From the IMG/VR virus record IMGVR_UViG_3300018421_000015, positions 22,300 through 86,299 of that record: a DNA stretch of 64,000 bases; one strand, 5' to 3'. Shown here in pieces: positions 19,359 through 53,471 of this stretch. The position numbers and the translations under genes are program-made. The notes under the pieces were generated by a model. It saw only the letters and a list, made by a program, of their open reading frames with translations, made no database searches and was not told the origin of the DNA. How positions within the stretch are numbered: the first letter of the stretch is position 1; every line of letters begins with the position of its first letter. The stretch comes from a virus.

Positions 19359-19675
19359 TAGAAGAAGAGTTTGATATTAGGTTAGTAGATTTTAGTGAAT
19401 TATCAAACGAAGATGCTTTAGAACTATTAGAAGCCTCTAAAATAATAGCTCTTAAAGATTTATACTCGGGCCTTTTACTGTGGGGCATAATTGAGGTACA
19501 TAAGATTGAGAATCTAGATGAGTTGCATCATTTTCTCTTTGACCCCGAAAGCTTAGCTGCCGTTGAATATTATAATTCCTTTAAAGAATTAGGATACGAT
19601 AAAGCCTACTACAATATGAGGGATAGTTACGATAAGCTTACCTTTATTGAATCAGTAGTTAAAGAATTATCTTGA
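19355..19675 (+). CDS. hypothetical protein
   Basis: ATGA overlap. Confidence 0.65.
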   Translation: MIEEEFDIRLVDFSELSNEDALELLEASKIIALKDLYSGLLLWGIIEVHKIENLDELHHFLFDPESLAAVEYYNSFKELGYDKAYYNMRDSYDKLTFIESVVKELS

Positions 19676-20500
19676 CCACCTATTTGCTATCCATTCCAAC
19701 ATTCTAGAGAGCCAATTTCCTTTTCCATCTTTTTTTTCAAGAAGTTCATCTTTATCTCGCTGCTCTTTTTTGTATCTAGATTTTTGATTAATTGGAATAA
19801 ACGTAGATTTAAAACCACGCTGAGAAAGAAGATCGTATATACTACCGTCACCCCAAATGTAATTAATCCCTTTTTGCCTAGGAATAGGTACCACATGCTG
19901 CATAATTTCACCTATTTCTATAGTAAATTCTTTATCAGTCAATATGTTCAAAACTATATTTGCATGATGGTAATAATCGGTATTTACTAATGCTGGCAAA
20001 AGTGTATAGTTTGGATTAGGTTCCCAAAGTGGAGGAAGGAAAATGGAAGACCACCCTGGTGCCGTTTTAAATAGCCAGGGATTTATTATTTTAATATAAT
20101 TTGCTCTCTCAAGTTTTCTTACCCTAGTCACTGGGCATTCTCCACTTTGATGAAAACCAAAACCTTCAACATGAAATTCGTGATTACCAGCAATGTCAAA
20201 TCTACTTTCCCAAAATGAACCATCTGGAGATGGTCTGAAATGCAGTCTTGCCCACATCGGTATATTGAAACCAAGAGATATATAATCAGCTGTCCCAGAA
20301 CATCTTCTCAATGCACCATCTCCAGAATCTAAATCTTTCCACCAATCTGGCCAATTTCTCCAGTTATCAATTGGCATTACTTCAGGGTCATAGAGCATTT
20401 GTGTATTCGGAGTAATTAAAACCTCACCTGGTTTTACTTTTGGTATATTATAAAAAGAATTAGCTGTCTCTATTTTTAGTTCTCTCAATGGCTTCTCCAT
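19667..20500 (-). CDS. DUF6065-like protein
   Basis: RC...GF.IP, PWLFKTAPGWS, LPALVNTDYY. Parallels the motifs of 48458..49183. Confidence 0.65.
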   Translation of the reverse strand: MEKPLRELKIETANSFYNIPKVKPGEVLITPNTQMLYDPEVMPIDNWRNWPDWWKDLDSGDGALRRCSGTADYISLGFNIPMWARLHFRPSPDGSFWESRFDIAGNHEFHVEGFGFHQSGECPVTRVRKLERANYIKIINPWLFKTAPGWSSIFLPPLWEPNPNYTLLPALVNTDYYHHANIVLNILTDKEFTIEIGEIMQHVVPIPRQKGINYIWGDGSIYDLLSQRGFKSTFIPINQKSRYKKEQRDKDELLEKKDGKGNWLSRMLEWIANRWSR

Positions 20501-21968
20501 GATCTATCATCTTTAAATTAATTAGATTAGAATTTGTCTCGCTTAGATGTTGAGTTGCTATTCTTCTGGATAGGTGTGCATTCAGCGAAACCGTTGCGGA
20601 TTCACTATTTAGAACTCCTTGACCCTGGGCAACGTGCCAGAAATGAGGTATAAAGAAGAGCTCAAATCCATTAGCAGTTATATCATGATCTTCGGGAGGT
20701 CGTTCTGACCATATTTCCAAAAGCTTCTGTAGCATTAGAGGCTTAGGTCTATTTTGTTGATCTAACCACATCTTAGTGTCATTTCTGTCAGAAATATAAT
20801 GTAAACAAATCATACTCAAAGCATTTTCCATAACTTCATTCATTATCTTATTATATTCTCTTATGGAGAATTCTGTCTTTTCGTTAAAGTTTGCTATATA
20901 TGAGCATAGTAATCTGGCCTGCTGTATCCCTATTGATATGGTTGTAGCCTCTAAAGGTTCGATGAAGCTATACGATAGGCCTATTGATACACAGTTTTTT
21001 TGCCAAGGTTCGCTATAATAGCCGGGTCTGAACTTAATGAATCTAGGATTTTCTATTTCAATACCATGAAACTCTTCAGCCTCAATAATCGCCTCCTCTT
21101 CAGTTATATAAGAGGAAGAGAAAACATATCCATTACCTTTTCTTTCTTGAGTTGGTATTTCCCACATCCACCCAGCATTCATGCTGATAGCTCTTGTGTA
21201 TGGGTGAATCTTTCCAAATATGTCTTTATCAGTTTGAAAAACTAGAGCTGTATCACAAGGTAAGTATTCGCTAAATGAATTAAACTCCACATTCTGCATT
21301 TTACTGGACAGCACTCTTGCAAATCCTGTTGCATCTATAAAAAAATCTCCAGATATTTTACTATCGAAACCATTAACTTTTATATATTTTATATGACCAT
21401 TTGAACCCTTATTTACAGATTCAATTTCACCTTCAACAAATCTTATGCCCATGTTATTGGCAAAGTTCTTAAGATATTTGTTGAGAAGAAATGTATCAAA
21501 ATGATATTGATTTGTTCCAAGATGAGTTTTATCTGGCTCTGTATCATCTTCACTAATCCCATCTATAACCTGATCCTCAATCATGCCTTTCCAGGAAAGT
21601 GAATTTGTTAAAAGGATTTCATTTTCTAGCAAAAAGCTATAGGTTGCATAGAAGGAGTTTCGTTTAATTCCTGTACCAGAAACAGAATGGATATACTTTG
21701 GCGTATGATTATTCCATCCCTCAAACATGATTCCATATTTGTGGGTGACGCCTGCAAATTTAATCATATCATCTACATTTATTCCAACAAAATCCTGAAA
21801 CCATCTCCAATGTTCCGTAGACCCCTCTCCTACGCCTATAATAGGGCTTTTTTCGGAAAAGCATACGGTTATGTCATATAAGGGGAATGTTTTTTTTAGA
21901 ATTATTGCAGTTGTCAATCCCGATGTACCAGCTCCGGCGATGACGATATGTTTTTGATCTATCTTCAT
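20460..21968 (-). CDS. Flavin-dependent (tryptophan halogenase family) halogenase
   Basis: GAGTSG, IGVGEGS, catalytic-type Lys in THKYGI, FFIDATGF, GWMWEIP (WxWxIP), FIEPLEAT. Confidence 0.92.
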   Translation of the reverse strand: MKIDQKHIVIAGAGTSGLTTAIILKKTFPLYDITVCFSEKSPIIGVGEGSTEHWRWFQDFVGINVDDMIKFAGVTHKYGIMFEGWNNHTPKYIHSVSGTGIKRNSFYATYSFLLENEILLTNSLSWKGMIEDQVIDGISEDDTEPDKTHLGTNQYHFDTFLLNKYLKNFANNMGIRFVEGEIESVNKGSNGHIKYIKVNGFDSKISGDFFIDATGFARVLSSKMQNVEFNSFSEYLPCDTALVFQTDKDIFGKIHPYTRAISMNAGWMWEIPTQERKGNGYVFSSSYITEEEAIIEAEEFHGIEIENPRFIKFRPGYYSEPWQKNCVSIGLSYSFIEPLEATTISIGIQQARLLCSYIANFNEKTEFSIREYNKIMNEVMENALSMICLHYISDRNDTKMWLDQQNRPKPLMLQKLLEIWSERPPEDHDITANGFELFFIPHFWHVAQGQGVLNSESATVSLNAHLSRRIATQHLSETNSNLINLKMIDHGEAIERTKNRDS

Positions 21969-21969: not shown

Positions 21970-22563
21970 TCATTTAAACCAGGTAACTAAAGAGTACTTC
22001 ACCGTTTCATCATCTGCACCAGCTGGTTTGGCTATATGCAAATACGGGAAATTGGATGGGAATAAGACACAGGATCCAGCTTGCGGCTTTATCTCAACAT
22101 CGAAATGAGGAAATACTAATTCGCCACCAGAGAAATCATCATTAAGAAAACAAACTAAGCTTAAAACTCTTTCATTATTTGGACCATGATCTTGATGAGC
22201 CCTATACTCTGCCCCTTTTCCATATCTTAATACTCTATAATTTTCGTCACCACTTAACTCCAATTCAAAGTCATCCCTATAGTCCCAGACGGTTTTATCT
22301 ATAGATTGGAAAATATCTATCCAAGTTGAATGCAATTCACTAATCCTCGAAGAGTGACCATCATAATTTGATAAAGGGGACAATTCACACGACATAGATG
22401 TTCGAACATCTGATATGTATCCATCACCCACTTGAGCTCTAACCCAATTAAGAAAAGACCACTCCTGAGAACACTCGCTTTCTAGTAGGTCTATAAATTT
22501 TTTACCAGAATCAAAAACATTAGTATATAACCTAATGCAAGTTCCTAAATCTTCTTTTTTCAT
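21970..22563 (-). CDS. 2OG-Fe(II) oxygenase, prolyl-4-hydroxylase-like
   Basis: HQD...LNDDFSGGELVF...H...KYSLVTW. Confidence 0.9.
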   Translation of the reverse strand: MKKEDLGTCIRLYTNVFDSGKKFIDLLESECSQEWSFLNWVRAQVGDGYISDVRTSMSCELSPLSNYDGHSSRISELHSTWIDIFQSIDKTVWDYRDDFELELSGDENYRVLRYGKGAEYRAHQDHGPNNERVLSLVCFLNDDFSGGELVFPHFDVEIKPQAGSCVLFPSNFPYLHIAKPAGADDETVKYSLVTWFK

Positions 22564-22564: not shown

Positions 22565-23188
22565 TTAATACAAGCTTTCTCTATATTCTTGTTCTTTCTT
22601 CCTTATCACGGAGTGATGTGCCTGGCCTATCGTTTTACTCCAATGGTTACCGGGTACAAAGTGATAAAATATAACACTAACTTCATTAGTCTTGGGATTT
22701 GGAAAATCTGGTCTCCAATGATATTGATCTTCACCATAGTATATTATAGCATCATTAGGGTCAACCGTAAACTCCTTACCTTCAACAAAAAGGGGCCAGG
22801 CATCCTTGTGGTCGATAGAAACATCTATCGTATACGTACATGCGTTGTCATCTACATGCTCGAACAGTCTAGCCTTATAACCTCTGTAGGTAGAAAATAT
22901 AGCATAGGACGCCTCAATGGTATCGTCCAAAAAAAGTTCTTTAGCCAAAGGAACTAATTTTTCAAGCGACTCTCTGAGCATGCAATCAGGGCCGCTATTC
23001 TGGGTATGATAGGTTAGTCTACCGAAACCTTCGTCATAAATAAATAGGGGTCTATTATTATTCCTTAAGTTAAGTAAATAATCCTTTAGAGAATTAAAAT
23101 ATGATACATCAAATACCCCCTCATAGACGAAAGCATCAGGTCTTAGTGTTAGGTTTCTGCCTGTTCTTTTATCAAAATAAGTTTCCAA
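22565..23188 (-). CDS. 2OG-Fe(II) oxygenase-like
   Basis: HVD...HWR...IFYHF. Confidence 0.75.
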   Translation of the reverse strand: METYFDKRTGRNLTLRPDAFVYEGVFDVSYFNSLKDYLLNLRNNNRPLFIYDEGFGRLTYHTQNSGPDCMLRESLEKLVPLAKELFLDDTIEASYAIFSTYRGYKARLFEHVDDNACTYTIDVSIDHKDAWPLFVEGKEFTVDPNDAIIYYGEDQYHWRPDFPNPKTNEVSVIFYHFVPGNHWSKTIGQAHHSVIRKKEQEYRESLY

Positions 23189-23194: not shown

Positions 23195-23899
23195 TCACTT
23201 AGACTCCTTCTTAGCCTTTTCTTCTGGTGCATCATCTTTAACCTCTGGATCTTCTTGAATTGAACACAGGTAAAATGTGCTAATCATCCATTTATCACCG
23301 GATATTGGAGGATTTCCCTGGTGTGGATGTGTCCAATGCGCAGGAAAAATAGCTATGCTACCAGCTCGTGGCTTTACGCTTTGTTCGTATATTGGAAAAT
23401 ATGTCTCGCCCCCAACCTCTACATCGTTAAGGTATACTATTCCAGCTAAAACTCTTTTGCCTACAGAACCGGACAGAGGGTTAGGCGATGACCACGGAGT
23501 GCCATCAACATGCTGTCGATAATGCCCCCAATTAGTTCCATAATGTTGAAGCCTAAAACCAGTATCAGTAATTCCTGGCCAATGCCACAATTCATTATAT
23601 GTTTTTTGATAATAAGCGATACAGCCAAAAAGGGCTTGATTTATTGTCGACTCGGCGTTAGCAAAGATCATGGAATTTATCCCGAGTTCCTGAAGTGCAT
23701 ATGAACTAAAATTAAAATCCATACTAGATTTAACGAATGGATTAATCCCACCAATTGTCGGTCCAGGAGAAAACAAATCCTTGTAATACTTATTGCATTC
23801 CCCAATAAGCTCTGAACATAAATCTGGATCTATTGCGTTTTTTGCCTCTAGAATATAACTTTGCTTTCCACCAAGAAAGTTTAACTCTACATTTTTCAT
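23195..23899 (-). CDS. 2OG-Fe(II) oxygenase, P4H-like
   Basis: HVD...YLNDVEVGGETYF...HPHQG...GDKW. Confidence 0.9.
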   Translation of the reverse strand: MKNVELNFLGGKQSYILEAKNAIDPDLCSELIGECNKYYKDLFSPGPTIGGINPFVKSSMDFNFSSYALQELGINSMIFANAESTINQALFGCIAYYQKTYNELWHWPGITDTGFRLQHYGTNWGHYRQHVDGTPWSSPNPLSGSVGKRVLAGIVYLNDVEVGGETYFPIYEQSVKPRAGSIAIFPAHWTHPHQGNPPISGDKWMISTFYLCSIQEDPEVKDDAPEEKAKKESK

Positions 23900-23937
23900 T
23901 AATATCTCCTAAAGTAATCAGGAGATATTATATCACA
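23900..23937 (-). promoter_or_regulatory. extended -10 promoter overlapping an RBS-sequestering hairpin
   Basis: TGTGATATAAT (23937-23927). A perfect 11-bp inverted repeat 23900-23910/23920-23930 contains the AGGAG RBS. Confidence 0.65.
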
Positions 23938-23939: not shown

Positions 23940-24200
23940 CTACGAAGGCGTCGCTGCATTGAGTGAGTTTTCAGCTAAGAGCAGTGTTTCATATAACGAA
24001 ATTTGAATCATGAGCATCTCTTGGTTACTATTCTTATTCGAATCTTCATAATCAACTTCAACGTATTCTGAAGGAACAAAAGATTCAGGATTTATACCTA
24101 TTCTAAGGCAGCAGGTATACATCTGTTCTAGTACAAAAGTTTTCTGAGAGTCAACCAAATTCTGTCTAACTTCTAATGAAAGATCTGAAAATATGGACAT
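23940..24200 (-). CDS. small acidic hypothetical protein
   Basis: AGGAG RBS. TTACTATATA upstream. Confidence 0.75.
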   Translation of the reverse strand: MSIFSDLSLEVRQNLVDSQKTFVLEQMYTCCLRIGINPESFVPSEYVEVDYEDSNKNSNQEMLMIQISLYETLLLAENSLNAATPS

Positions 24201-24241: not shown

Positions 24242-27200
24242 TTAAGCGTCTAATATTTTAGAGAAATTAGAATGCCCTATCTGATTCTGAACATTTCCGG
24301 AATCTCTAGAAACTATTAAAACACCACCCTGGTATCCTGGATCATACGTTGAAGGATCTGCGGTACCTCCAGCTCCTCCAGCTCCTCCAGCTCCACCAGT
24401 TCCGCCTAAGTATTCAAGGTTATCATAGGATTCATTATGGCCAGCATTATAGGGGTTTCCATGGTGAGGACCAGACGGAAGTGCCCCACCAGTAGCATGA
24501 TGTACATTATAGGATGGATGGTGATGGTATCCAGCTGTAAAAGTGGTTGGATTCTGAGATCCACCTGTTGACTGAACAAACCTCCTACCTATAAGCGGAA
24601 CACCAGGTACTAAAGCATGTGCCGCGAAGTTTACTCCATCATTCGTACCGACAAAGTGATAAATACCAGCTGCACCTACATGTGAACCCGGAGTATGACC
24701 TCTTAAATGCCTCGTCCCAGTATGGTTCTCGTCATTAAAGTCAGTAGTGTAAAGATACCTAACTGTTGGAGTTGTCGGATCATTTAATGGCGATATAGGT
24801 CCCGCAGTATGATCATGATTCCCTTCAGGCCAACTGCCAGAATGGTAATCGCCAGTGTGCCCATTGGCAGTTCCAGTATGAGTAACGGGAGTGTGGCCAG
24901 CAATATTTGCTGCCGTAGGAGCACCATGAATATTTAGCCCATTTATATCTCCATGAGGGTAATACCCTGCGTTGTGTAGATATTCCTTGTTTCCACTATG
25001 TCCAGAATAGTTAGTAGGAAGATTAGAATTTTGCCCATGATTCACATCGGGATTATGCCCTGGTGTATGGTGTACCCACTCTCCAGAATTCCACCCTTCA
25101 TTATAATGTGCGCTATGATTGTGGGTAGACCTCGGATAAAATGGTGCACTAGAGGGATGGCCATTGTAATTATTGTGATTATGATTATAGTCATGGTTAC
25201 CTGCGTTATGGCTATAGGTATTAGTGTGTTGATGAGGATTATTTGCCGGTAAGTTTGGTGAATTATAGTGACCAGAAGTATGGGGGTGAGTATGATTAGG
25301 ATTGTGTCCTGGATTATGATTTATGTGATCACCAGCATTAAATGATAAAAAGGTATAAGCATTACCATTGTACACCTGATTAGCTGGAACACCAAGCGCC
25401 GGATTAGCATGGGGAGCAGAGTTATGGTTGCTGTTACCCGAAACAGCAGGGCCATTTCCCGACCCAGGGTTTACTCTATGCCAGTAAGTCTGAATGCCAG
25501 TTAGTGGTCCAGTATAATGATTTTGATGGCTTCCACTATGGTTATGATTATTTGTGGGCCATATCGGAGAATTGCTAGGAAGGATCTGCAAGTGATGTGG
25601 TTTAGTGGAGTAATAAGTGGTATGGCTTCTGCTGTGTGTATTGTGAGATCCATAATTATGTGAATTATAGCCGGAGCTGTGCCAGGGTGTCACGTTACCT
25701 GTATGACCTACAGGATTATCATTTGTTGAATTATATGTACCATGGCCAAGACTGATAGCAGGTGAGGGTATAGATGGGCCAACGTTTGCATGATTACCTG
25801 CGTTGTGGGGGTGCTCGCTCTTTGTATGAAACTCGGTACCCGCTATATGATAATGGCCTGCAGGATGGGTGGCATTTGATGGATTGCCCGGCAAAGTACC
25901 GGCACTGTGGGGATGATTACCAGGATGATAACCATGCCCGTGCTGATTATGTACGGTAGCAGTGTGGCCATTATGCCCGGTGGGAAGATTAACTGATGGC
26001 GTATGATGCTGGTTTGCAGGAAAAACAGGTGCATGAGCGTCATCGAAAGTGGTATGCGAGGGCCACGATCCATCTCCTGCATGAGGATGTGTAAGCTGCT
26101 GATGAAAAGGTGTACCTGGGATTGTTCCAGGAGTATGGTGATGATACATGTTTCCCGCATTACTTGGAGCGGCAACAGTTGAGGGAAGATGTATGTTGGC
26201 ATTGGTGCCAGTTGAATTATGCGCGTGAGATATCTCACTACCCAAAAAAGGATATGAAGAATTAACACCAGCCGGATGATCATGATACCCCGGATTATGA
26301 CCCTGTGGGTCATAAATAGCGTTATGGTTTGAAACATTTGGTCTTTGATTTGCTGGTAGTCCACTAAAAGCTGGATAGTTTGTTGGGGCTATACTTACTG
26401 CCGGATGAGGATGTTCACCCTCATTTATTCCCTGGTTAAAAAAAGTTGCATCAGTGGGAAATGGATTAGCGTTCCTTATATCATATAAGTCTGAAATGTC
26501 ATATAAATTACCATGGTTATGAGTAGAGGGATTAAAAGTACCACCAGAAGTAGTAGCGTTATGACTTAACTTGCCCCCTGTTGCTGCAAAAATTGATCCG
26601 GTTCCTGATCCATGAGGGTGATTTCCTGCCGATACATGATGGTAACCCTGATTTACGCCAGAATCGTAAGGGCTACCTAAGTTAGCAAATGAGTCTATGT
26701 TTGGTGCAGGGTTGCCTGGGTTGCCATCTACGCCATCCAATCCCTGGGAAGGGCTACTCTCTGAAGTGGAAGATGTTCCTCTTGATTCAATTATTCCAGA
26801 ACCATCTATAGTTTTAGCTACTATAAGAACAACTCCACCACCAGAACCCCTTTGCCCACCACTACCTCTTGCAGCAGCGTTTCCATCTTGACCTGGGTTG
26901 CCTGGGTTGCCAGGGCCACCAGGAGATCCTGGTGGTAGTGATATAAATGCACCAGGGTTACCCGGCTGTCCAGGTTGACCTTCACCGGGATCTTCTAGGT
27001 CACCAACTTGTTGATCACCAGGTTGGCCACCAGAAACGGCGTGTATATTTCCATCAGCGGAGACTAGAAAACCATTAACAGCTACATCTAGGTCTTTAAC
27101 AATATTTTCAGATAAAGCTTCATTAGCAGATCCTTCACCCCAAGCATAACTCTTAACTACATCAGATCTCCTAGAAACAGTAGAAGCATTGGCTGTTTCT

Positions 27201-27466
27201 AAGATATTATTAGGCATTCCTATAGTGCCATTATTGGTTAGAGTACCATTAACCAATATTCTAAACCCATTGGTAAATAATGTTGCACCGGATTGAATTG
27301 TTAAATCTTGGTAATACATATCTGATGATAGGTATATTGTTTGACCAGAAGAAATGGTCAAACTCCCATCTGACCCGTCTCCGAACATCTCATCTACACC
27401 GGCAGTCATAGTCTGCTCGGCCTTAGTCAGGCTAAATTTATTGTTTACTCTTCTTACTCTAGCCAT
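24242..27466 (-). CDS. Gly-rich virion-type protein with collagen-like segment and ~740-aa His/Asn/Gly/Pro-rich insert
   Basis: N-terminal FGDGSDG...LTIQSG..L.TNGFR shared with 27468..28247. GQPGNPG repeats. About 100 His by hand count. Confidence 0.85.
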   Translation of the reverse strand: MARVRRVNNKFSLTKAEQTMTAGVDEMFGDGSDGSLTISSGQTIYLSSDMYYQDLTIQSGATLFTNGFRILVNGTLTNNGTIGMPNNILETANASTVSRRSDVVKSYAWGEGSANEALSENIVKDLDVAVNGFLVSADGNIHAVSGGQPGDQQVGDLEDPGEGQPGQPGNPGAFISLPPGSPGGPGNPGNPGQDGNAAARGSGGQRGSGGGVVLIVAKTIDGSGIIESRGTSSTSESSPSQGLDGVDGNPGNPAPNIDSFANLGSPYDSGVNQGYHHVSAGNHPHGSGTGSIFAATGGKLSHNATTSGGTFNPSTHNHGNLYDISDLYDIRNANPFPTDATFFNQGINEGEHPHPAVSIAPTNYPAFSGLPANQRPNVSNHNAIYDPQGHNPGYHDHPAGVNSSYPFLGSEISHAHNSTGTNANIHLPSTVAAPSNAGNMYHHHTPGTIPGTPFHQQLTHPHAGDGSWPSHTTFDDAHAPVFPANQHHTPSVNLPTGHNGHTATVHNQHGHGYHPGNHPHSAGTLPGNPSNATHPAGHYHIAGTEFHTKSEHPHNAGNHANVGPSIPSPAISLGHGTYNSTNDNPVGHTGNVTPWHSSGYNSHNYGSHNTHSRSHTTYYSTKPHHLQILPSNSPIWPTNNHNHSGSHQNHYTGPLTGIQTYWHRVNPGSGNGPAVSGNSNHNSAPHANPALGVPANQVYNGNAYTFLSFNAGDHINHNPGHNPNHTHPHTSGHYNSPNLPANNPHQHTNTYSHNAGNHDYNHNHNNYNGHPSSAPFYPRSTHNHSAHYNEGWNSGEWVHHTPGHNPDVNHGQNSNLPTNYSGHSGNKEYLHNAGYYPHGDINGLNIHGAPTAANIAGHTPVTHTGTANGHTGDYHSGSWPEGNHDHTAGPISPLNDPTTPTVRYLYTTDFNDENHTGTRHLRGHTPGSHVGAAGIYHFVGTNDGVNFAAHALVPGVPLIGRRFVQSTGGSQNPTTFTAGYHHHPSYNVHHATGGALPSGPHHGNPYNAGHNESYDNLEYLGGTGGAGGAGGAGGTADPSTYDPGYQGGVLIVSRDSGNVQNQIGHSNFSKILDA

Positions 27467-47560: not shown

Positions 47561-48181
47561 TTAGCCCAATATCTCATTTATGCACTCTCTAACTGTCCAG
47601 CTTTCACCGGTTGTAAGAGGCACTGTATCGAGTGGCATTGATTGCCAATTAAATCTTCCAATCATAGTTCCTGATCTACCGACAACAAACATCTCCCAGG
47701 CATGAGGTATTCTAGCCAGGGCTGCACCTTCCTGATTCCATCCATCTTGCGCTTCCTGAGAGTTGTCGGCCATGTTGTCAGACTTGTTTCTTAGAGCTTT
47801 ACCCTTCAATAGGGAATAAACTTCACATTCATCTGGCCCATTAACATCAACCTTTTCAGCTATAGGAAAAGTAACGAAAGGATATGTTTCTTTCATGAAG
47901 GAACTTATCTCCTCATTTGTACCAGTTTCCATTAGACCCTGAACAAACTGATTACAGGGAAATGCAACTACGCTAAACCCTCTATTCTCAAACTCTTCTT
48001 GTAGCTTTTGCAGCTGCCAGAAATGCCTAACAGATCTTGCGTATGACCAGAAGGTGGAGCACTGTGGTGTGTAGTTATACTTAGAAACTGTATTAACTAT
48101 AAGAGTAACTTTACCCTTGAATTGCTCCATAAAATTATCTTCGCCATCTATTGACTTAACTGGCACATCGTAAATAGACAT
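47561..48181 (-). CDS. Glutathione peroxidase-family protein (atypical)
   Basis: GKVTLIVN, GFSVVAFPCNQF, TFPI..KVDVNG. The canonical Cys position reads Tyr. Confidence 0.88.
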   Translation of the reverse strand: MSIYDVPVKSIDGEDNFMEQFKGKVTLIVNTVSKYNYTPQCSTFWSYARSVRHFWQLQKLQEEFENRGFSVVAFPCNQFVQGLMETGTNEEISSFMKETYPFVTFPIAEKVDVNGPDECEVYSLLKGKALRNKSDNMADNSQEAQDGWNQEGAALARIPHAWEMFVVGRSGTMIGRFNWQSMPLDTVPLTTGESWTVRECINEILG

Positions 48182-48465
48182 TATATTACCTCACACTTTG
48201 CTTCAATATATACCTGTTCCAAAAGTGGATCTTCCACCTTTATTACACTGCTATCGCTACCTAGGGAAAAGATTAACCTACAATCAAAAGGAACGGTCAG
48301 ATCCCCTTCTGCCAACAAGCCCTTTTCATCATTAAAAACTATATTTAAATCTGCAGAACCTTTAAATATAGATAAGGTTAACTCAGTATCACTTTTCTTC
48401 TCAATAGAAAACTCTTCATCACCAAGCGGCGTAACTACTTTCATCTTAGATGGGATGCTATCCAT
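48181..48465 (-). CDS. hypothetical protein
   Basis: ORF track. GAGGT RBS. Confidence 0.65.
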   Translation of the reverse strand: MDSIPSKMKVVTPLGDEEFSIEKKSDTELTLSIFKGSADLNIVFNDEKGLLAEGDLTVPFDCRLIFSLGSDSSVIKVEDPLLEQVYIEAKCEVI

Positions 48466-49183
48466 TGTATTCAACCTCTTTCATTTCTGGTTCTTGCAGG
48501 TCGGGTAGACCATCATGTCTAGGACCTATTCTTTCACCTTTTTCATTTAATCCTGTGCGTATTCCGTTCATCCACGTCCAGGGCTCATCACGAAGCTTTT
48601 TCATCTTGGCCTCGCTGTAGGACATTCTTTCATCCATAAGATCTGGTTTATCCCAAAGGTATTCAACCTCAACTTCCATTTCTGGCATCAAGTTAGAGGG
48701 GTATACTGAAAAGAATATGAACGGCATCCCTGCAGGAAATACCACTGGCTCATTAACCTTAGTTATCTTCCAACCAGCTTGAACCTCATCTGGCCACCAA
48801 TCAGAGGGGATGCTAGCCGTAAGTGGTACAGCGCCATCAATAAAATAGTTTGGTGAACCACTAATCCATGTATGATATCCAGGCTCTGTCTTAAAAGCCC
48901 ATCCAATATGAAAATCGATCATACCTATCTTATTGCAATTCGCAATAGTTCTACCACGGTAGACATCACCTTCAACGATTTTAGGGACACTGTTGCCACC
49001 TTCCCAAGTGACAACAATGTCCTGCTGCAAAATGGCTTCCCAACCATTTACATTTGCAGCACTGAGTGGAAGACATCTATAAGCATGTTTGTTATAGGTG
49101 TCATCCATCCAGTCTCTTTTCAGTCTCGACTGCTTTATTTCAGGCGAGATCTGATGTGTTCTTATTAAGGTAAGCTTTGACAT
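48458..49183 (-). CDS. DUF6065-family protein
   Basis: RDWMD.T..KHAYRCLPL..AN..GW, FKTEPG...GSPN, PL...I.SDW, F..G.PF. Confidence 0.8.
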   Translation of the reverse strand: MSKLTLIRTHQISPEIKQSRLKRDWMDDTYNKHAYRCLPLSAANVNGWEAILQQDIVVTWEGGNSVPKIVEGDVYRGRTIANCNKIGMIDFHIGWAFKTEPGYHTWISGSPNYFIDGAVPLTASIPSDWWPDEVQAGWKITKVNEPVVFPAGMPFIFFSVYPSNLMPEMEVEVEYLWDKPDLMDERMSYSEAKMKKLRDEPWTWMNGIRTGLNEKGERIGPRHDGLPDLQEPEMKEVEYNG

Positions 49184-50070
49184 TATTTAGCGCCTGCCAC
49201 ATATTGTTGATATTGACCCATATTAGCCATGTCCCCACCATGGGTTTGCCACTGCCTATAGCTTTCCATCGCATACTTTTGGATCTCTTCTAGTATTATC
49301 TCCCTAAGTCTAACCTCATCCATGTTGATCGGCTCATTACCCTTCTTAAGGGTCGCTGACCCACCAGACTTTACCACCGGCACTTCGTCAGCATTAAAAG
49401 AAGGTTTCTCTGGCTGCGAATACGACTGACCAAAATCTCTGGAGAATCCACCATGCTGATGAGCGTCATCATTATAATCAAACATTGTTACAGCACTATA
49501 CTTTATACCTGAAGTAACTGGTTTTGAAGCGTGGGCAAACAAAAAGGTTGACGGGAAAAAAACGCTGTCTCCAGCTTTAGGATAGTATGTTAAGTCCAGG
49601 TAAGGAAAATACAACTCTCCACCTTCGTAGTCATCGTTCAGATATGTAACACAAGACACTGTGCATATGTAGGAGAACCCATGATCAGTATGGGTACTGA
49701 AGTGCTCGTTTACGCCGTATCTGACAAAGTTAATAGCCTCCATATAGTTCATTGTTATACCATATGCCGAGCAGTAATCTTTTAAGCATTCCTTTTGTGC
49801 TCCGGCTACCGATGTATAAACATCAATAATATCAGAAAACTCTTCTGGAGTACCAGATATATACTTATCATCCATCTTAAAATCGACACAGTCCCTATAG
49901 TCTGGCATCTTTACGCCTTCGCCAACAAGAGAATCATGCCACTTAAAATAGTCATGAGTACTATCACGAAGAGCTGTCTCCAATCTAATTGGAACATTAA
50001 CTTCTGGTGATACAGAATCATTATATACTACTATCCCCATTTTGGGATCTCCTAGGTATTCTTTTTTCAC
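49183..50070 (-). CDS. 2OG-Fe(II) oxygenase, P4H-like
   Basis: HTD...YLNDDYEGGELYF...FAHAS.PV.SG.KY. Confidence 0.92.
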   Translation of the reverse strand: MKKEYLGDPKMGIVVYNDSVSPEVNVPIRLETALRDSTHDYFKWHDSLVGEGVKMPDYRDCVDFKMDDKYISGTPEEFSDIIDVYTSVAGAQKECLKDYCSAYGITMNYMEAINFVRYGVNEHFSTHTDHGFSYICTVSCVTYLNDDYEGGELYFPYLDLTYYPKAGDSVFFPSTFLFAHASKPVTSGIKYSAVTMFDYNDDAHQHGGFSRDFGQSYSQPEKPSFNADEVPVVKSGGSATLKKGNEPINMDEVRLREIILEEIQKYAMESYRQWQTHGGDMANMGQYQQYVAGAK

Positions 50071-50639
50071 TTTGTCTCCTTATTTAGTATGTGCCAAAAT
50101 CCAGTACATGCTGATCTATCTCCAGATTCTACCTCAATAACGGTATGCATGTGGTCTTCATCTGAGGGAAAGTATATTGCTGAACCAGCCAATGGCTGTA
50201 TTTCAATATCCAAGTCTGGGAACACTAAACTACCTCCCTCAAAATTCTCTGTCAAATAAAGTATAGAGCTTATATCTCTGCTTGGGAGCCCACTGTATGT
50301 AGGTAAATCAGACCAGCAATCTGCATGATATTCGAGAACCCATCCGGGAGTATATCTAACAACAGTACCAATACCCTCTTCACCCACTGTGCAGTTAAAA
50401 TCTTTTTCTATATTTTCTTTTATTATTTTATTTTTTTCCTCTAGAATCAAGGAGGCCATACAACAACTGCTTCCCTCCCCAAGAATCTCTCCTTGTTCTC
50501 CCACTTCGAAAAACTGATTGTCACTAAGCTCATCTTTGTTCCAGACAGCTTCACCTATACAATCGTGTACAGTCTTTAATTCTTCATGAGTAAATAAGCT
50601 AGCAATAATATATATATCTTTTATCTTAATTTTTCTCAT
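50067..50639 (-). CDS. 2OG-Fe(II) oxygenase, P4H-like
   Basis: HAD...FEGG.LVF...HMHTV..V.SG.R. Confidence 0.9.
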   Translation of the reverse strand: MRKIKIKDIYIIASLFTHEELKTVHDCIGEAVWNKDELSDNQFFEVGEQGEILGEGSSCCMASLILEEKNKIIKENIEKDFNCTVGEEGIGTVVRYTPGWVLEYHADCWSDLPTYSGLPSRDISSILYLTENFEGGSLVFPDLDIEIQPLAGSAIYFPSDEDHMHTVIEVESGDRSACTGFWHILNKETK

Positions 50640-51259
50640 AGAAGCTCCGTGATGGTATAAAAAGAGGGTGTAGTCCATCTTTCACCCTGAATCACAGGCT
50701 TAACACCATGCAGGTAGTGAATATCACCTGGATGAGCAACAGCTAGACCCGGTTTTATCTTTAGCTCAATGTCAAACTCTGGGTAATAGAATTCTCCACC
50801 CTCAAAGTCTTCATTCCAGTATATTATGGAATTAATATCATAAGTAGGAAATGGATTTGGTGATCCATCATTCAACTGTTTATCAGCATGAGGTTGCTGC
50901 TCGTTACCCGGTAACCATCTAATTAAAACTGGCGGTCTCTGATATAACTTCACTTTAAATTTATCTTCAAGCGCTCTTTGCATCTTGACAATATATGAAT
51001 CGATGAGATTATATATATCAGGATTTAATTCACCTATTATTCTTCCAGAACACATTCTGTCCCACCAATACGATGCGTCGTAGGTGCAAGTACCATCTTC
51101 GTTGAACTCATCTTCCATAGGATTCTCCCACTTATCTATAGTTGGAAAGAAGTCCTGAAGGATTTTGAGATCAGACGGCTCCACGAAGTCTTCAATAATA
51201 AGTATATTATCTAAAGAGTCACCAAAATGACCAGGCTGAATTAAAGATTTTTCTTCCAT
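50636..51259 (-). CDS. 2OG-Fe(II) oxygenase, P4H-like
   Basis: HAD...DFEGGEFYYP...YLHGV.PV..GER. ATG at 51259. Confidence 0.92.
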   Translation of the reverse strand: MEEKSLIQPGHFGDSLDNILIIEDFVEPSDLKILQDFFPTIDKWENPMEDEFNEDGTCTYDASYWWDRMCSGRIIGELNPDIYNLIDSYIVKMQRALEDKFKVKLYQRPPVLIRWLPGNEQQPHADKQLNDGSPNPFPTYDINSIIYWNEDFEGGEFYYPEFDIELKIKPGLAVAHPGDIHYLHGVKPVIQGERWTTPSFYTITELL

Positions 51260-51265: not shown

Positions 51266-51276
51266 AGTATACCACA
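51266..51276 (-). promoter_or_regulatory. extended -10 promoter, leaderless
   Basis: TGTGGTATACT lies 6 nt upstream of ATG 51259 and there is no SD. Confidence 0.6.
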
Positions 51277-51308
51277 ACCTACCCCGGACTATCAATCCGG
51301 GGTAGGTT
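51276..51308 (-). terminator. intrinsic terminator-like hairpin after the FN3/PPFF gene
   Basis: Perfect 13-bp stem AACCTACCCCGGA/TCCGGGGTAGGTT with a 7-nt loop. Confidence 0.75.
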
Positions 51309-51314
51309 TACTTC

Positions 51315-53471
51315 TCACTTAAATGATGGTGGGAAGAATGGCGGGAAGAATGGTGGGAAGAATGGCGGGAAGAATGGCGGGAAATAAGGTGGGAAGTAAG
51401 GCGGGAAGAACGGTGGGAAGAACGGTGGGAAATAGGGTGGGAAGAACGGTGGGAAGAACGGTGGGAAGTAAGGCGGGAAGAACGGCGGGAAGAACGGTGG
51501 GAAGTAAGGCGGGAAAAACGGCGGGAAGAATGGTGGGAAATATGGTGGGAAGAATGGTGGGAAGAACGGTGGGAAGTAAGGCGGGAAGAACGGTGGGAAA
51601 TATGGCGGGAAGAATGGCGTAATAGTTGTACCATCACCAGACCTTTCGTAATACCCATTCCAAGGATTAACAGAAATAAACCACTCTCTATTATCCAAAC
51701 CTGATATAGTACCACTCCAAGTATTAGCAGCATTGGGGATGATAGCCTTCAATGTAAAAACACTACTCCCAGTTAGTGGCGTTGGAGATGCATATATTTT
51801 GTAATTATTCGGCGCGTAACTAGACCCACCGAATCCTCCACCAGTCCAGCTAACAGTAACCTGACCTTCAGTAGCGGTGTTAGTTAAGGTAACATTACTA
51901 ATGTCCCCCGGTACACCAGCTGACTGAACCTCTGTTGTACTTGTTCTCCAACCAGAGCTTGCCACATCATTATTTGATCTAACCCTATATTCGTATATAG
52001 ATCCTTGTGTGGTACTATGGGTATACGACGTGCTAGAAGTAGTAGTTACAGTTGACCATGAGCCAGAATTGTTTACATTTGCCTGCAATGTATAGGTAAT
52101 GCTTGAGTCACCAGCACCATCAGAAGCTGACCAGCTAATATTAATCTTATTACCATAGCTAGTGCTATCTCCAATGACATGACCCTGACCAGTAATCGTT
52201 TCCCCAACAGTATCTACACCACCATCGCCAGTAGCCTCATGTGAATATGAAATACTCGCTGGTGTTGAAGGAGTTCCGAAAACTAAAATACTAGCTGAAG
52301 CTGAATAATTAGAACCGGTATTAGTGTTATTATTGAACGTTTTTAATCTTACATAATATGTAGTATTAGAAGATAATCCACTTAAGGACGAAGATGTGCC
52401 GATGGTTGATGTAGAATAAAGCCAAGTTGCATTGTCGGTTGAATAATATACGTCAGTAACTATGTTACCTGCAGCTGCGCCGCCATAGTTTCCTGTTTTC
52501 GTCCAAGAAATATATATAGATCCAGAACTTAATCTTGACAAAGAAGGAGTACCCGGTGCACCAGGCTCATCGTAAGCTGTGGCCGAAGCACTAGAGCTGT
52601 ATGATGAACTGCCAACAGAGTTATTTGTTCTAACTCTAAAGTAATACACTTGACTTGCACTAGTATCATCAGGGACATCGTACCCAAGTGTAGCACTGGT
52701 TCCAGTCACACCTGTTGAAAGATTAAACCACGTGGCATTATCTGTAGAGTATTGAACGTCGTAAGTTCTATTAGCAGTGGTGTCTCCACCTAAAGAGGTA
52801 ACATGAGACCACGAAACAGTTAGCGTAGCTGGATCTGCGGTAGTGGTTGCTGAGGCAGAAATGGAAGGAGCAGAAGGAGTAGTAAGTGGGGTAGCAGTGG
52901 ATCCACCCTGAACATAAGAGGATTGATATAAACTATTTTCAGTTCTAACACGATAATAATAGGCGGTGCCGTTAGTTAGAGATGTTATAGTCTTAGAGTT
53001 TGTTCCAAAAGCAACTGTTCCAGCACTTGTCCAAGTAGAACCATTTGTAGAATACTCTACCCTGTAAACAGTGTTTGCATTTGTGTCTCCACCGGTATCG
53101 CCTGCCGACCAAGAAACTGTAATCTGACCGTTGCCTACTGATGCACTAAGTGAAGAAGGAGCTCCAGGTGTTGTTATGAAAGATAATAATGAAACAGGCG
53201 TATAGGCTTCACTGACTACGCCAGAATCAGTAGTAGCAACAACAGTGATAGCGGGGGTAGTACCTGCAGATATGTCGCTAGAGGTAAAAGTAATTACGTT
53301 GCTTGTTGAAGACTTTTCGACAACACCATTTGAAGCCTTATAAGTGATTGCATCTTCCCCGTCTCTACCGGCATACTCCAGGGTTACGGTTACTACAAAA
53401 TTACCATCACTGTTTGCTAAAGAAACATCACTAATTATTGGTTGCTTACCACCATAATCTTTAACTGCCAT
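51315..53471 (-). CDS. Multi-fibronectin type III virion-type protein with C-terminal (PP[F/Y]F)n tail
   Basis: About five FN3 repeats (P.AP...I.VSW...Y.V.YS...W...L...T.YY.RVR..N) followed by a Pro/aromatic repeat. Confidence 0.88.
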   Translation of the reverse strand: MAVKDYGGKQPIISDVSLANSDGNFVVTVTLEYAGRDGEDAITYKASNGVVEKSSTSNVITFTSSDISAGTTPAITVVATTDSGVVSEAYTPVSLLSFITTPGAPSSLSASVGNGQITVSWSAGDTGGDTNANTVYRVEYSTNGSTWTSAGTVAFGTNSKTITSLTNGTAYYYRVRTENSLYQSSYVQGGSTATPLTTPSAPSISASATTTADPATLTVSWSHVTSLGGDTTANRTYDVQYSTDNATWFNLSTGVTGTSATLGYDVPDDTSASQVYYFRVRTNNSVGSSSYSSSASATAYDEPGAPGTPSLSRLSSGSIYISWTKTGNYGGAAAGNIVTDVYYSTDNATWLYSTSTIGTSSSLSGLSSNTTYYVRLKTFNNNTNTGSNYSASASILVFGTPSTPASISYSHEATGDGGVDTVGETITGQGHVIGDSTSYGNKINISWSASDGAGDSSITYTLQANVNNSGSWSTVTTTSSTSYTHSTTQGSIYEYRVRSNNDVASSGWRTSTTEVQSAGVPGDISNVTLTNTATEGQVTVSWTGGGFGGSSYAPNNYKIYASPTPLTGSSVFTLKAIIPNAANTWSGTISGLDNREWFISVNPWNGYYERSGDGTTITPFFPPYFPPFFPPYFPPFFPPFFPPYFPPFFPPFFPPYFPPFFPPFFPPYFPPFFPPFFPPYFPPFFPPFFPPYFPPYFPPFFPPFFPPFFPPFFPPSFK
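51321..51617 (-). repeat. 12-bp coding tandem repeat: PFF + 24 x PP(F/Y/S)F
   Basis: Direct translation. Higher-order PPYF-PPFF-PPFF (36-nt) period. Variation is mostly synonymous. Confidence 0.95.

What the first reader, a model, noticed from the sequence alone, without database searches (positions are those of the whole stretch)
19667..53471. Two parallel 'substrate + 3 oxygenases + DUF6065' modules
Seen: module A is the FN3-(PPxF)n gene, a hairpin, a TGTG-10 promoter, three oxygenases (51259, 50639, 50070), DUF6065, a small ORF and GPx. Module B is the His-rich gene, a small ORF, a TGTG-10 promoter with hairpin, three oxygenases (23899, 23188, 22563), the halogenase and a DUF6065-like gene. 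Inference: this is a repeated cassette design in which each low-complexity fibre travels with its own modifying enzymes. It also suggests a role for DUF6065 in protein modification.
Basis: partly seen in the sequence, partly recalled or inferred. Interest (0 to 1): 0.8.

Follow-up and report, generated by a model that had tools for sequence, protein, structure and literature searches.

The report
Two fibre-linked phage enzyme cassettes
An uncultured large phage carries two separately inherited gene blocks, each pairing an odd repetitive tail-fibre-region protein with collagen-type hydroxylase-like enzymes and a dUTPase-shaped partner protein, so the repetitive proteins are testable but unproven candidate targets of phage oxygenases and halogenases whose role is unknown.

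Summary
Module A runs 47561-53471 and module B 19667-28603, both on the minus strand of an 86-kb IMG/VR phage record.

- 19667-20500 is a remote DUF6065 relative. A PF19541-bearing intermediate bridges the two genes (E 2e-23 and 8e-7), and both models have a dUTPase fold.
- Linkage is conserved. A (PPxF)n tract lies upstream of DUF6065 in 26 of 31 relative clusters. A halogenase is adjacent to the DUF6065-like gene in 44 of 54 clusters.
- The blocks are present or absent as units. Five module-A-only records have no halogenase, no Gly-rich fibre homologue and no B-type gene. Three module-B-only records have no PPxF tract.
- A bacterial prophage repeats Gly-rich protein, oxygenase and DUF6065.

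Limits:
- The two modules are picked out of an array of at least 12 oxygenase genes.
- Only the third oxygenases pair up across modules.
- Chromosomal bacterial DUF6065 shows no such linkage.
- No chemistry has been shown.

The array, with its halogenase and a "dUTPase-fold protein with a conserved cysteine", was described in silico for phage Syn9 in 2010 and read as metabolite synthesis. This scan has also noted both cassette types before on other DNA. I rate it a new variant of a known kind.

The parts
51315..53471 (-). Module A candidate substrate: 718-aa FN3-repeat protein ending in 24 PP[F/Y/S]F units (the tract is about 51333-51620).
   Evidence: A homologous tract-bearing gene lies upstream of DUF6065 in 26 of 31 relative clusters.
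51276..51308 (-). 15-bp GC-rich hairpin directly after the FN3-PPxF stop codon.
   Evidence: z -4.7.
51266..51276 (-). TGTGGTATACT extended -10-like element, 6 nt before the ATG at 51259.
   Evidence: 5 sites in the window, all on this strand, against 0.62 expected..
50636..51259 (-). A_ox1, a 2OG-Fe(II) oxygenase-like gene. The ORF tool starts it at TTG 51295.
   Evidence: PF13640 at 22.9 bits, below the cut-off. E 8e-15 to A_ox2. HAD motif.
50067..50678 (-). A_ox2, a 2OG-Fe(II) oxygenase. An alternative ATG lies at 50639.
   Evidence: PF13640, 47.4 bits.
49183..50070 (-). A_ox3, a prolyl-4-hydroxylase-like 2OG oxygenase and the constant upstream neighbour of DUF6065.
   Evidence: PF13640, 45 bits. 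The only solved relatives are three Bacillus anthracis P4H sequences (E 1.4e-7). Adjacent to DUF6065 in 27 of 31 clusters and within two genes in 31 of 31.
48458..49183 (-). DUF6065 protein with a dUTPase-fold domain (residues 1 to about 175) and a helical tail.
   Evidence: PF19541, 140.9 bits. AF2 pLDDT 81.4. VIA Z 10.1 to EIAV dUTPase, 119 of 120 residues aligned.
48181..48474 (-). 97-aa ORF with no family hit.
   Evidence: Homologues follow DUF6065 in close relatives.
47561..48181 (-). Glutathione-peroxidase-like gene.
   Evidence: PF00255, 86.6 bits. Within three genes downstream of DUF6065 in 22 of 31 clusters.
27468..28603 (-). Two genes, g119 (28244-28603) and the Gly-rich 259-aa protein (27468-28247), that always precede the variable fibre-type protein.
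   Evidence: A Gly259 homologue lies within 10 genes in 47 of 54 clusters.
24242..27466 (-). Module B candidate substrate: a 1074-aa Gly/Asn/His-rich protein. Its N-terminus resembles Gly259. It has ten Pro-Gly dipeptides in residues 140-215 and 102 His in residues 271-1010.
23940..24200 (-). 86-aa ORF with no family hit.
   Evidence: Weak homologues at the same place in some relatives.
23900..23937 (-). TGTGATATAAT (23927-23937) overlapping a 13-bp hairpin (23900-23930) that pairs the AGGAG ribosome-binding site of B_ox1.
23195..23899 (-). B_ox1, a 2OG-Fe(II) oxygenase.
   Evidence: PF13640, 43.5 bits.
22565..23188 (-). B_ox2, a probable DSBH protein; oxygenase status not shown.
   Evidence: No Pfam hit. 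phrog_2954 at 4.8e-11. HVD motif. No BLASTP match to any other window protein.
21970..22563 (-). B_ox3, a prolyl-4-hydroxylase-like 2OG oxygenase and the counterpart of A_ox3.
   Evidence: PF13640, 58.3 bits. 32% identity over 165 aa to A_ox3, E 6e-22. B. anthracis P4H at 2.9e-6.
20460..21968 (-). Flavin-dependent halogenase.
   Evidence: PF04820, 331 bits. GAGTSG and WMWEIP motifs. VirX1 (6qgm) at 6e-35.
19667..20500 (-). DUF6065-like protein, a remote relative of PF19541 with a dUTPase fold.
30446..45032 (-). Enzyme genes between the modules. They include oxygenase-like genes 30446-31426, 32022-32561, 37332-38021, 41363-42139, 42149-43030, 43027-43914 and 43917-45032, a glycosyltransferase, a carbamoyltransferase and an aminotransferase.

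Best explanation
Shown:
- The window holds two separately inherited gene cassettes inside the tail-fibre region of an uncultured large phage.
- Cassette A is a (PPxF)n-tailed FN3 protein, two or three P4H-like 2OG oxygenases, DUF6065 and often a GPx-like gene.
- Cassette B is g119, a Gly-rich protein, a variable Gly/His-rich protein, a P4H-like oxygenase, a flavin-dependent halogenase and a DUF6065-like protein, sometimes with two more DSBH genes.
- The two DUF6065-type proteins are remote homologues. They share a dUTPase fold and an invariant Cys.

Inferred:
- The oxygenases hydroxylate prolines of the co-encoded repetitive protein. The candidate sites are PPxF units in A and X-Pro-Gly triplets in B.
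- The halogenase halogenates aromatic or His side chains of the B protein.
- The DUF6065-type protein is a non-nucleotide partner, either a scaffold or a Cys-dependent subunit, of the ox3-type oxygenase or the halogenase.
- The product would be a chemically tailored virion fibre.
For: Homology and fold:
- P0092 carries PF19541. It matches the B gene at E 2e-23 (34% over 183 aa) and the A gene at 8e-7.
- Both AF2 models give only dUTPase-family top hits (pLDDT 85.8 and 81.4).
- W25, C37, G47 and G102 are invariant across 20 superfamily members.

Cassette A, from 80 loci forming 31 clusters at 95% identity:
- An A_ox3-type gene is adjacent in 27 of 31 clusters and within two genes in 31 of 31.
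- A_ox1-type is within five genes in 30 of 31.
- A (PPxF)n tract of at least 5 units lies on the same strand 1.5-6.5 kb upstream in 26 of 31.
- Three of the five misses have under 2.2 kb of upstream sequence. One has a 4-unit tract.

Cassette B, from 80 loci forming 54 clusters:
- The halogenase is adjacent in 44 of 54.
- A B_ox3-type gene is near in 46 of 54.
- Gly259 is within 10 genes in 47 of 54.
- In 7 clusters the fibre trio sits downstream instead of upstream.

Presence/absence:
- Five module-A records, one of them a complete 202-kb genome, hold no B-type gene, no halogenase and no Gly259 (0 of 5 each).
- Positive controls gave 3 of 3 and 5 of 5.
- Three module-B records lacking PF19541 hold no PPxF tract. 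The one with PF19541 has a tract 1.7 kb upstream.

Independent instance:
- Prophage L216 reads SU10 adaptor, 360-aa gene, Gly-rich 210-aa gene, PF13640 oxygenase, DUF6065, DUF6065-like, DUF4376.

Chemistry leads:
- The only solved relatives of A_ox3 and B_ox3 are B. anthracis collagen-type P4H sequences.
- Ten Pro-Gly dipeptides lie in residues 140-215 of the B protein.
- VirX1 is trimeric with a large open active site, and no natural product is listed for it (passages of PMC8407142).
Against: - No modification has been measured anywhere.
- All counts come from related phages, so shared ancestry could give much of the synteny. The presence/absence sample is ten records that may fall into two lineages.
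- One cluster (22) keeps A_ox1, A_ox3 and DUF6065 with no PPxF tract in a 104-kb contig estimated 50% complete.
- His is among the four commonest residues of the B fibre in only about 15 of 54 clusters.
- B_ox1 and B_ox2 are often missing.
- At least six oxygenase genes in the window do not adjoin any low-complexity gene.
- In cultured relatives the halogenase-oxygenase pair sits between terminase genes (HTVC008M). The S-RIM4 DUF6065-like gene sits by ribonucleotide reductase.
- Chromosomal bacterial DUF6065 has a PF13640 gene within 2 kb in 1 of 20 genomes. Its neighbours are housekeeping genes.
- The PBCV-1 precedent is weak: no hydroxyproline was found in its virions (passage of PMC7019647).
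- Direct profile comparison of the two DUF6065 alignments is weak (E 0.15).
Confidence: 0.45

Rival explanations
1. The oxygenase-halogenase-dUTPase-fold array makes or alters a small molecule, such as an amino-acid-derived or halogenated metabolite or a sugar. The fibre genes are only neighbours.
For: - This is the published reading of the Syn9 array: 10 dioxygenases, 2 halogenases and a dUTPase-fold Cys protein (passages of PMC2938197).
- The window also has an aminotransferase, a carbamoyltransferase and two glycosyltransferases in the same run.
- Characterised flavin halogenases mostly act on free or carrier-bound small substrates (passages of PMC8407142).
Against: - No peptide synthetase, carrier protein or transporter was seen among the ORFs annotated. 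Not every ORF was annotated.
- The repetitive proteins are lost together with the enzymes.
- Prophage L216 has only an oxygenase and DUF6065 genes beside a Gly-rich tail-region protein.
Confidence: 0.2
2. The enzymes are general host-takeover genes, for example drawing down 2-oxoglutarate. They accumulate in the hyperplastic region next to fibre genes, and the linkage is inherited synteny without shared function.
For: - Sullivan et al. 2010 proposed that the many cyanophage 2OG oxygenases act on host 2OG levels (passages of PMC3037559).
- There are at least 12 oxygenase-like genes here, most not beside a repetitive gene.
- Placements vary in cultured phages.
- The TGTGnTATAmT element is not kept in relatives: 11 sites in 417 kb, only one before an A_ox1-type gene.
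Against: - Linkage survives inversion of A_ox1/A_ox2 and relocation of the B fibre trio.
- The blocks are gained or lost as units.
- An unrelated prophage type repeats the triad.
- The oxygenases are old, diverged paralogues rather than recent amplifications.
Confidence: 0.15
3. The enzymes do modify protein, but the target is another virion or host protein. The DUF6065-type protein could instead be a trimeric assembly chaperone of the neighbouring fibre rather than an enzyme partner.
For: - dUTPases are trimers (recalled knowledge), and the fold match covers a whole dUTPase chain.
- Non-enzymatic dUTPase-fold viral proteins are in the match list, namely HCMV pp71 and the ORF10 complex.
- Collagen-like and Gly-rich tracts also occur in other fibre genes of the window.
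Against: - The invariant Cys argues for chemistry or metal binding rather than pure scaffolding.
- Chromosomal bacterial DUF6065 occurs without any fibre gene.
Confidence: 0.15

Closest known systems
Syn9-type cyanophage dioxygenase/halogenase gene neighbourhood (Iyer, Abhiman, de Souza and Aravind 2010, Nucleic Acids Res; PMC2938197; passages read; Figure 4 and the supplementary data not seen)
   Same: [quoted passage not shown] All three features are met here.
   Different: That paper reads the phage array as secondary-metabolite synthesis and names no protein substrate. Here the array resolves into cassettes that are co-inherited with a (PPxF)n protein or a Gly/His-rich protein. Whether a JmjC/MINA-type member is present here was not tested.
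Chlorovirus PBCV-1 prolyl 4-hydroxylase acting on Pro-rich repeat peptides (Eriksson et al. 1999, seen only as cited in PMC7019647, passages)
   Same: Both are virus-encoded small P4H-type 2OG oxygenases with proline-rich repeats in viral ORFs as proposed targets.
   Different: That is a eukaryotic virus with a single enzyme, no DUF6065 partner and no halogenase. Hydroxyproline was not found in its virions. No sequence comparison with that enzyme was made here.
Bacillus anthracis collagen-type prolyl 4-hydroxylase (PDB 3itq, 5hv0)
   Same: These are the only solved structures that A_ox3 and B_ox3 match by sequence (E 1.4e-7 and 2.9e-6).
   Different: The matches cover only the catalytic core (about 65-95 residues). 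Substrate-binding parts are not shown to be shared.
Viral flavin-dependent halogenase VirX1 of cyanophage Syn10 (PDB 6qgm)
   Same: Both belong to the same family (E 6e-35) and both are phage-borne. No natural product is listed for VirX1 in the review's table.
   Different: The match covers residues 152-401 only. Other bacterial tryptophan halogenases score higher. Halide preference is unknown here.
Bacterial operons pairing beta-hydroxylase-type 2OG dioxygenases with collagen-like or tail-collar proteins (Iyer et al. 2010, passage)
   Same: The logic is the same: the co-encoded Gly-rich or collagen-like protein is proposed as the substrate of the neighbouring dioxygenase.
   Different: Those are bacterial, involve other dioxygenase families and sulfotransferases, and have no DUF6065 or halogenase.

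Membership tests
DUF6065 (Pfam PF19541) | Score over the curated cut-off (26.6 bits), tested on 48458-49183 | tested here: met
   140.9 bits, profile positions 2-194 of 236. 140.2 bits in the genome search.
DUF6065 (Pfam PF19541) | Score over the curated cut-off, tested on 19667-20500 | tested here: not met
   No hit at E <= 0.01. 2 of 28 family members hit at E <= 1, best 0.0017. It is a relative at superfamily level only.
dUTPase-like fold superfamily | Fold of the trimeric dUTPase/dCTP deaminase jelly-roll | tested here: met
   For the A protein, VIA Z is 10.1 to 6.2 for the top 22 rows, all dUTPase, dCTP deaminase or herpesvirus dUTPase-like. Foldseek gives 69 hits at E <= 0.001, with every listed row a dUTPase entry. 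For the B protein, Foldseek gives 4 hits at E <= 0.001, all dUTPases.
dUTPase (enzyme family, PF00692) | Sequence membership and catalytic motifs | tested here: not met
   No PF00692 hit for either protein. 1 of 28 B-type members hits at E 0.17. No PDB sequence match. By eye, and from recalled motif knowledge, the motif-III catalytic Asp position is not Asp. This was not aligned residue by residue.
2OG-Fe(II) oxygenase (PF13640, P4H-like) | Score over the cut-off (27 bits) and an HxD...H iron triad | tested here: met
   A_ox2 47.4, A_ox3 45.0, B_ox1 43.5 and B_ox3 58.3 bits. HxD is present in each.
2OG-Fe(II) oxygenase (PF13640, P4H-like) | The same test applied to A_ox1 (50636-51259) and B_ox2 (22565-23188) | tested here: inconclusive
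   A_ox1 scores 22.9 bits, below the cut-off, but matches A_ox2 at E 8e-15. B_ox2 has no Pfam hit, matches only phrog_2954, and has no BLASTP match to any other window protein. HxD is present in both.
Collagen-type prolyl 4-hydroxylase | Hydroxylation of peptidyl proline | not testable with these tools
   There is only sequence likeness to B. anthracis P4H.
Flavin-dependent (tryptophan-type) halogenase | Pfam PF04820 plus the GxGxxG and WxWxIP motifs | tested here: met
   331.3 bits. GAGTSG at residue 12 and WMWEIP at residue 267. The catalytic Lys was not checked.
Syn9-type dioxygenase/halogenase array (Iyer et al. 2010) | Several distantly related tandem dioxygenases, halogenase(s) and a dUTPase-fold protein with a conserved Cys | tested here: met
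   At least 12 oxygenase-like genes falling into separate paralogue groups. One halogenase. Two dUTPase-fold proteins with an invariant Cys.
Syn9-type dioxygenase/halogenase array (Iyer et al. 2010) | A JmjC/MINA-type member in the array | not tested
   No search for JmjC families was made.

The most novel reading that the evidence does not exclude
DUF6065-superfamily proteins are Cys-bearing, dUTPase-fold specificity subunits. They dock a P4H-like oxygenase, or in cassette B the halogenase, onto a repetitive fibre tract. On this reading, phages carry swappable cassettes of 'substrate tract plus tailoring enzymes' that yield hydroxylated and halogenated virion fibres. That would be a kind of virion chemistry not yet described. 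It would also name the natural substrate of viral halogenases and of the cyanophage-type oxygenase arrays.
Probability: 0.2. Interest if true: 0.85.

Novelty: new variant of a known kind. Interest (0 to 1): 0.58.

Why it matters
Tandem 2OG-oxygenase arrays and halogenases of T4-like marine and lake phages have had no known substrate. This has been so since they were described (2005-2010) and since VirX1 was characterised.

Co-inheritance of each enzyme block with one unusual repetitive fibre-region protein turns that open question into a bench test. The test is to co-express tract and enzymes and look for +16 Da and halogen mass shifts.

The work also gives DUF6065 its first context. No paper in the searched library names the family. 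The context is a dUTPase fold, an invariant Cys, and a constant pairing with a P4H-like oxygenase in phages.

Tried and rejected
- Near-identity searches of both modules against GenBank phages found nothing useful. tblastn of the A DUF6065 against those phages found no match.
- Direct BLASTP and hhalign of the two DUF6065-type genes were weak (E 0.004 over 35 aa; E 0.15). Homology rests on the intermediate and on the shared fold.
- A PDB sequence search with the DUF6065 profile gave only chance-level hits.
- T4-type late promoter TATAAATA is not enriched: 10 sites against 7.9 expected. I dropped the idea that the site at 24219-24226 shows late timing.
- The TGTGnTATAmT element is significant in the window but is not kept before A_ox1-type genes in relatives. 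It cannot be used as a cassette feature.
- The small ORFs of the two modules are not homologous to each other or to 46620-47543.
- The genome-contig scan gave only three hits at 63-67% identity in metagenome-assembled genomes, probably binned phage DNA. They served only to obtain a bacterial handle.
- The ORF caller in my scripts mis-called some ORFs. It picked wrong-frame or opposite-strand ORFs over repeat tracts and in high-GC bacterial loci. I therefore counted tracts by six-frame regular expression and checked L216 with the ORF listing and Pfam.
- Gene labels are best phmmer hits to window proteins at E <= 1e-3. They are not independent annotations.
- Only the best 80 of 379 (A-type) and 80 of 199 (B-type) IMG/VR relatives were examined.
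- Supplementary files and figures of papers were not seen. Figure 4 and the supplementary data of PMC2938197 may list the dUTPase-fold family and its neighbours.
- Searches behind 'not in print'.

Full report
**What the DNA is.** The window is bases 22300-86299 of an 86,299-bp IMG/VR virus record that CheckV rates 41% complete. From 19667 to 63340 almost every long ORF is on the minus strand. The ends of this run hold tail-fibre-type genes. These are 53522-57826, 58959-59519, 59562-61688 and 61742-63340, with PHROG tail-fibre, baseplate and virion-protein hits. No close relative is in GenBank phages. The halogenase and the oxygenases find Kyanoviridae cyanophages and pelagiphage HTVC008M at about 30-35% identity.

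Module A (unless stated):
- The first gene is a 718-aa FN3 protein ending in 24 PP[F/Y/S]F units. Its last 105 residues hold 49 Pro, 41 Phe and 8 Tyr.
- Three oxygenase-type genes follow. Two are over the PF13640 cut-off. The first scores 22.9 bits against 27 but matches the second at E 8e-15.
- Then come DUF6065 (140.9 bits), a 97-aa ORF and a GSHPx-domain gene.

Module B (unless stated):
- The first gene is a 1074-aa protein with 104 His. An 86-aa ORF follows.
- Three putative oxygenase genes follow. Two are over the cut-off. The middle one has no Pfam hit and matches only a PHROG family labelled 'ferrochelatase'.
- A Trp_halogenase gene (331 bits) and 19667-20500, which has no Pfam hit, complete the block.

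The hairpins are real (z -4.7 and -4.4, 0 of 200 shuffles each). The element TGTGnTATAmT occurs 5 times in the window, all on the coding strand, against 0.62 expected (0 of 100 shuffles reach 5).

**Qualifications to the observation.**
- Only two of the five TGTGnTATAmT sites belong to the two modules. Two more precede other enzyme blocks, before 45032 and before 58955. One lies inside a gene.
- The hairpin precedes the -10 element in A. In B it follows the element and covers the ribosome-binding site.
- The small ORFs are unrelated.
- Between the modules lie at least six or seven more oxygenase-like genes, two glycosyltransferases, a carbamoyltransferase and an aminotransferase.

The 'two modules' are therefore a selection from a larger array.

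**Is 19667-20500 a DUF6065 homologue?**
- Directly, the evidence is thin. BLASTP gives E 0.004 over 35 residues. hhalign of a 28-row against a 27-row alignment gives E 0.15.
- The gene's own homologue search ends in proteins that carry PF19541, P0092 at E 4.3e-13 and P0094 at 2.5e-11.
- P0092 matches the B gene at 2e-23 (34% over 183 aa) and the A gene at 8e-7 (23% over 146 aa).
- Both AF2 models are confident (pLDDT 85.8 and 81.4), and both find dUTPases first.
- For the A protein, a search independent of Foldseek gives Z 10.1 to EIAV dUTPase with 119 of 120 residues aligned. The top 22 rows are all dUTPase, dCTP deaminase or herpesvirus dUTPase-like proteins.
- A 20-sequence alignment of both types, the intermediates and bacterial members keeps W25, C37, G47 and G102 of the A protein invariant.

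The homology claim holds at superfamily level. The B gene is not a member of PF19541 as the model is drawn.

**Are the modules parallel copies?** Only in part.
- A_ox3 and B_ox3 are each other's best cross-module match (32% over 165 aa, E 6e-22).
- A_ox1 is closest to A_ox2. B_ox1 is closest to B_ox3. B_ox2 matches nothing in the window.
- The four genes at 41363-45032 form a separate tight group.

The shared core is one P4H-like oxygenase plus one DUF6065-type protein next to a repetitive fibre-region protein. The rest differs.

**Conservation of cassette A.** The DUF6065 profile finds 379 relatives in IMG/VR. I examined the best 80, which have 63-100% identity and form 31 clusters at 95%.
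- An A_ox3-type gene is immediately upstream in 27 of 31 clusters and within two genes in 31 of 31.
- An A_ox1-type gene is within five genes in 30 of 31, sometimes inverted.
- A GPx-type gene is within three genes downstream in 22 of 31.
- A coding tract of at least five PPxF-type units lies on the same strand 1.5-6.5 kb upstream in 26 of 31.
- Of the five misses, three have less than 2.2 kb of upstream sequence. One has a four-unit tract 2.5 kb upstream.
- The last, cluster 22, has none in a 104-kb contig rated 50% complete.
- In the one complete genome (202 kb, terminal repeats), all 15 forward pattern matches form one tract at 199880-200083. It lies within the locus that holds DUF6065.

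**Conservation of cassette B.** The B-type profile finds 199 relatives. I examined the best 80, which have 36-59% identity and form 54 clusters.
- The halogenase is adjacent in 44 of 54.
- A B_ox3-type gene is near in 46 of 54.
- The Gly259-type gene is within ten genes in 47 of 54.
- B_ox1-type and B_ox2-type genes are near in only 29 and 21 of 54.
- In seven clusters the g119-Gly259-fibre trio lies just downstream of the DUF6065-like gene instead of upstream. The association therefore survives rearrangement.
- The variable protein after Gly259 is always Gly-rich. His is among its four commonest residues in only about 15 clusters.

**Presence and absence.**
- Five large records with cassette A are 49, 50, 71, 84 and 100% complete. 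They have no B-type gene (0 of 5), no halogenase (0 of 5) and no Gly259 homologue (0 of 5).
- The same queries find their targets in 3 of 3 and 5 of 5 records known to hold cassette B.
- Of four large records with cassette B, three have no PF19541 gene and no PPxF tract. The fourth has both, 1.7 kb apart. A fifth record, that of L083, was not held.

Each repetitive protein thus comes and goes with its enzymes. The sample is small and may fall into two lineages, so this is not a phylogeny-corrected test.

**Outside these phages.**
- PF19541 is found in 26 of 401 sampled genomes of the phylum of G001, 24 of them over the cut-off. One of these is a genome flagged unpublished.
- In 20 of them a PF13640 gene lies within 2 kb of the DUF6065 gene once, and within 10 kb twice.
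- The recurrent neighbours are an aminoacyl-tRNA editing domain, a thioredoxin-TPR protein and a Lon substrate-binding domain, in 5-6 of 19 loci. Chromosomal DUF6065 therefore shows no such linkage.
- One weak hit turned out to be a prophage tail region. It reads SU10-type adaptor, a 360-aa gene, a Gly-rich 210-aa gene, a PF13640 oxygenase (61.3 bits), DUF6065 (29.9 bits, over the cut-off), a second DUF6065-like gene and a DUF4376 protein. This is a third instance of the triad, in a different phage type.
- In cultured phages the picture is mixed. HTVC008M has a 2OG oxygenase and halogenase between the terminase genes and four oxygenases beside head-tail genes. S-H38 has the halogenase about 6.6 kb downstream of the end of a tail-fibre gene, among genes annotated 'endonuclease V'. 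The S-RIM4 relative of the B-type gene sits by ribonucleotide reductase.

**Mechanism.** These points are shown:
- There are two conserved, separately inherited cassettes.
- Their oxygenases' only solved relatives by sequence are three Bacillus anthracis collagen-type P4H sequences.
- The halogenase belongs to the flavin-dependent family and has its two signature motifs.
- The DUF6065-type proteins have a dUTPase fold and match no dUTPase family model at a significant E-value.

These points are inferred:
- The PPxF tract and the X-Pro-Gly stretch of the B protein are hydroxylated. That stretch has ten Pro-Gly dipeptides in residues 140-215.
- The His/Tyr/Trp-rich middle of the B protein is halogenated.
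- The DUF6065-type protein is a partner of these enzymes.

I put this at 0.45. The rivals are metabolite synthesis, which is the published reading of the Syn9 array; general 2OG-consuming host takeover; and another protein target or a chaperone role for DUF6065.

**Comparison with what is known.**
- Iyer et al. 2010 described the Syn9 neighbourhood. [quoted passage not shown] They suggested organo-halogen metabolite synthesis (passages).
- For other, bacterial operons the same paper proposed that co-encoded collagen-like or tail-collar proteins are dioxygenase substrates.
- The fold and Cys of DUF6065-type proteins, and the array as such, are therefore in print, though not under the name DUF6065 (0 papers).
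- I found no paper that links the phage arrays to a fibre-region protein. This rests on the searches, and on the passages read. Supplements and figures were not seen.
- This scan has already noted both cassette types on other DNA, with similar follow-up verdicts. It holds 64 notes in at least 53 genomes for the halogenase type, and several for the PPFF type. A withheld report also covers this same stretch.

**Verdict.** This is a new variant of a known kind of phage gene array. Its value is that it names two concrete, testable protein substrates and a context for DUF6065. Interest is 0.58.

Noticed in passing
window 23927-23937, 37534-37544, 45056-45066, 51266-51276, 59013-59023 (all minus strand): A shared element, TTGTGGTATAAT-like, occurs 5 times against 0.62 expected. 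Four of the sites lie just upstream of enzyme gene blocks (B_ox1, the four-oxygenase group, A_ox1 and the glycosyltransferase at 57915-58955). It may be this phage's promoter type for the tailoring genes. It is not kept at these places in relatives.
   Followed up: partly
window 47561-48181: The GPx-like protein reads VNTVSKYNYTPQC where, from memory, glutathione peroxidases have their peroxidatic Cys/Sec motif. By eye the usual Cys position is not Cys. It may be a non-canonical or inactive peroxidase.
   Followed up: no
window 41363-45032: Four tandem oxygenase paralogues (258, 293, 295 and 371 aa) are 28-33% identical to each other. They are kept in the same order downstream of cassette A in most relatives.
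   Followed up: partly
L216 (G057:C1:813678-826232), about 4767-9607 minus strand: A prophage tail region in a bacterial genome reads SU10-type adaptor, 360-aa gene, Gly-rich 210-aa gene, PF13640 oxygenase, two DUF6065-type genes and a DUF4376 protein.
   Followed up: partly
window 58959-59519 and 61742-63340: The 186-aa and 532-aa tail-fibre-type proteins share a 145-residue segment at 65% identity, a sign of module exchange among the fibre genes.
   Followed up: no
window 51308-51733 (minus) and 51323-51622 (plus): The His/Ser/Arg-rich and Gly/Arg/Met-rich ORFs over the PPxF tract are other-frame readings of the repeat, not genes. The same artefact appears in relatives as 'SSHRSSHR' and 'WWEEWWEE' ORFs.
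   Followed up: yes
L198-L215 (bacterial DUF6065 loci): Chromosomal DUF6065 genes of the sampled proteobacterial genomes often lie next to a divergent aminoacyl-tRNA-editing-domain gene. A thioredoxin-TPR gene and a Lon substrate-binding-domain gene follow, in 5-6 of 19 loci.
   Followed up: partly
G412:C1:112872-128559: A 98%-complete 156-kb relative holds both cassette types within about 16 kb: a short PPxF tract, an A-type DUF6065 at 114634-115227 and a B-type gene at 127792-128559.
   Followed up: partly
window 24219-24226: A T4-type late-promoter-like TATAAATA lies in the 41-nt gap before the 86-aa ORF. The motif is not enriched in the window (10 against 7.9 expected), so this may be chance.
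   Followed up: yes
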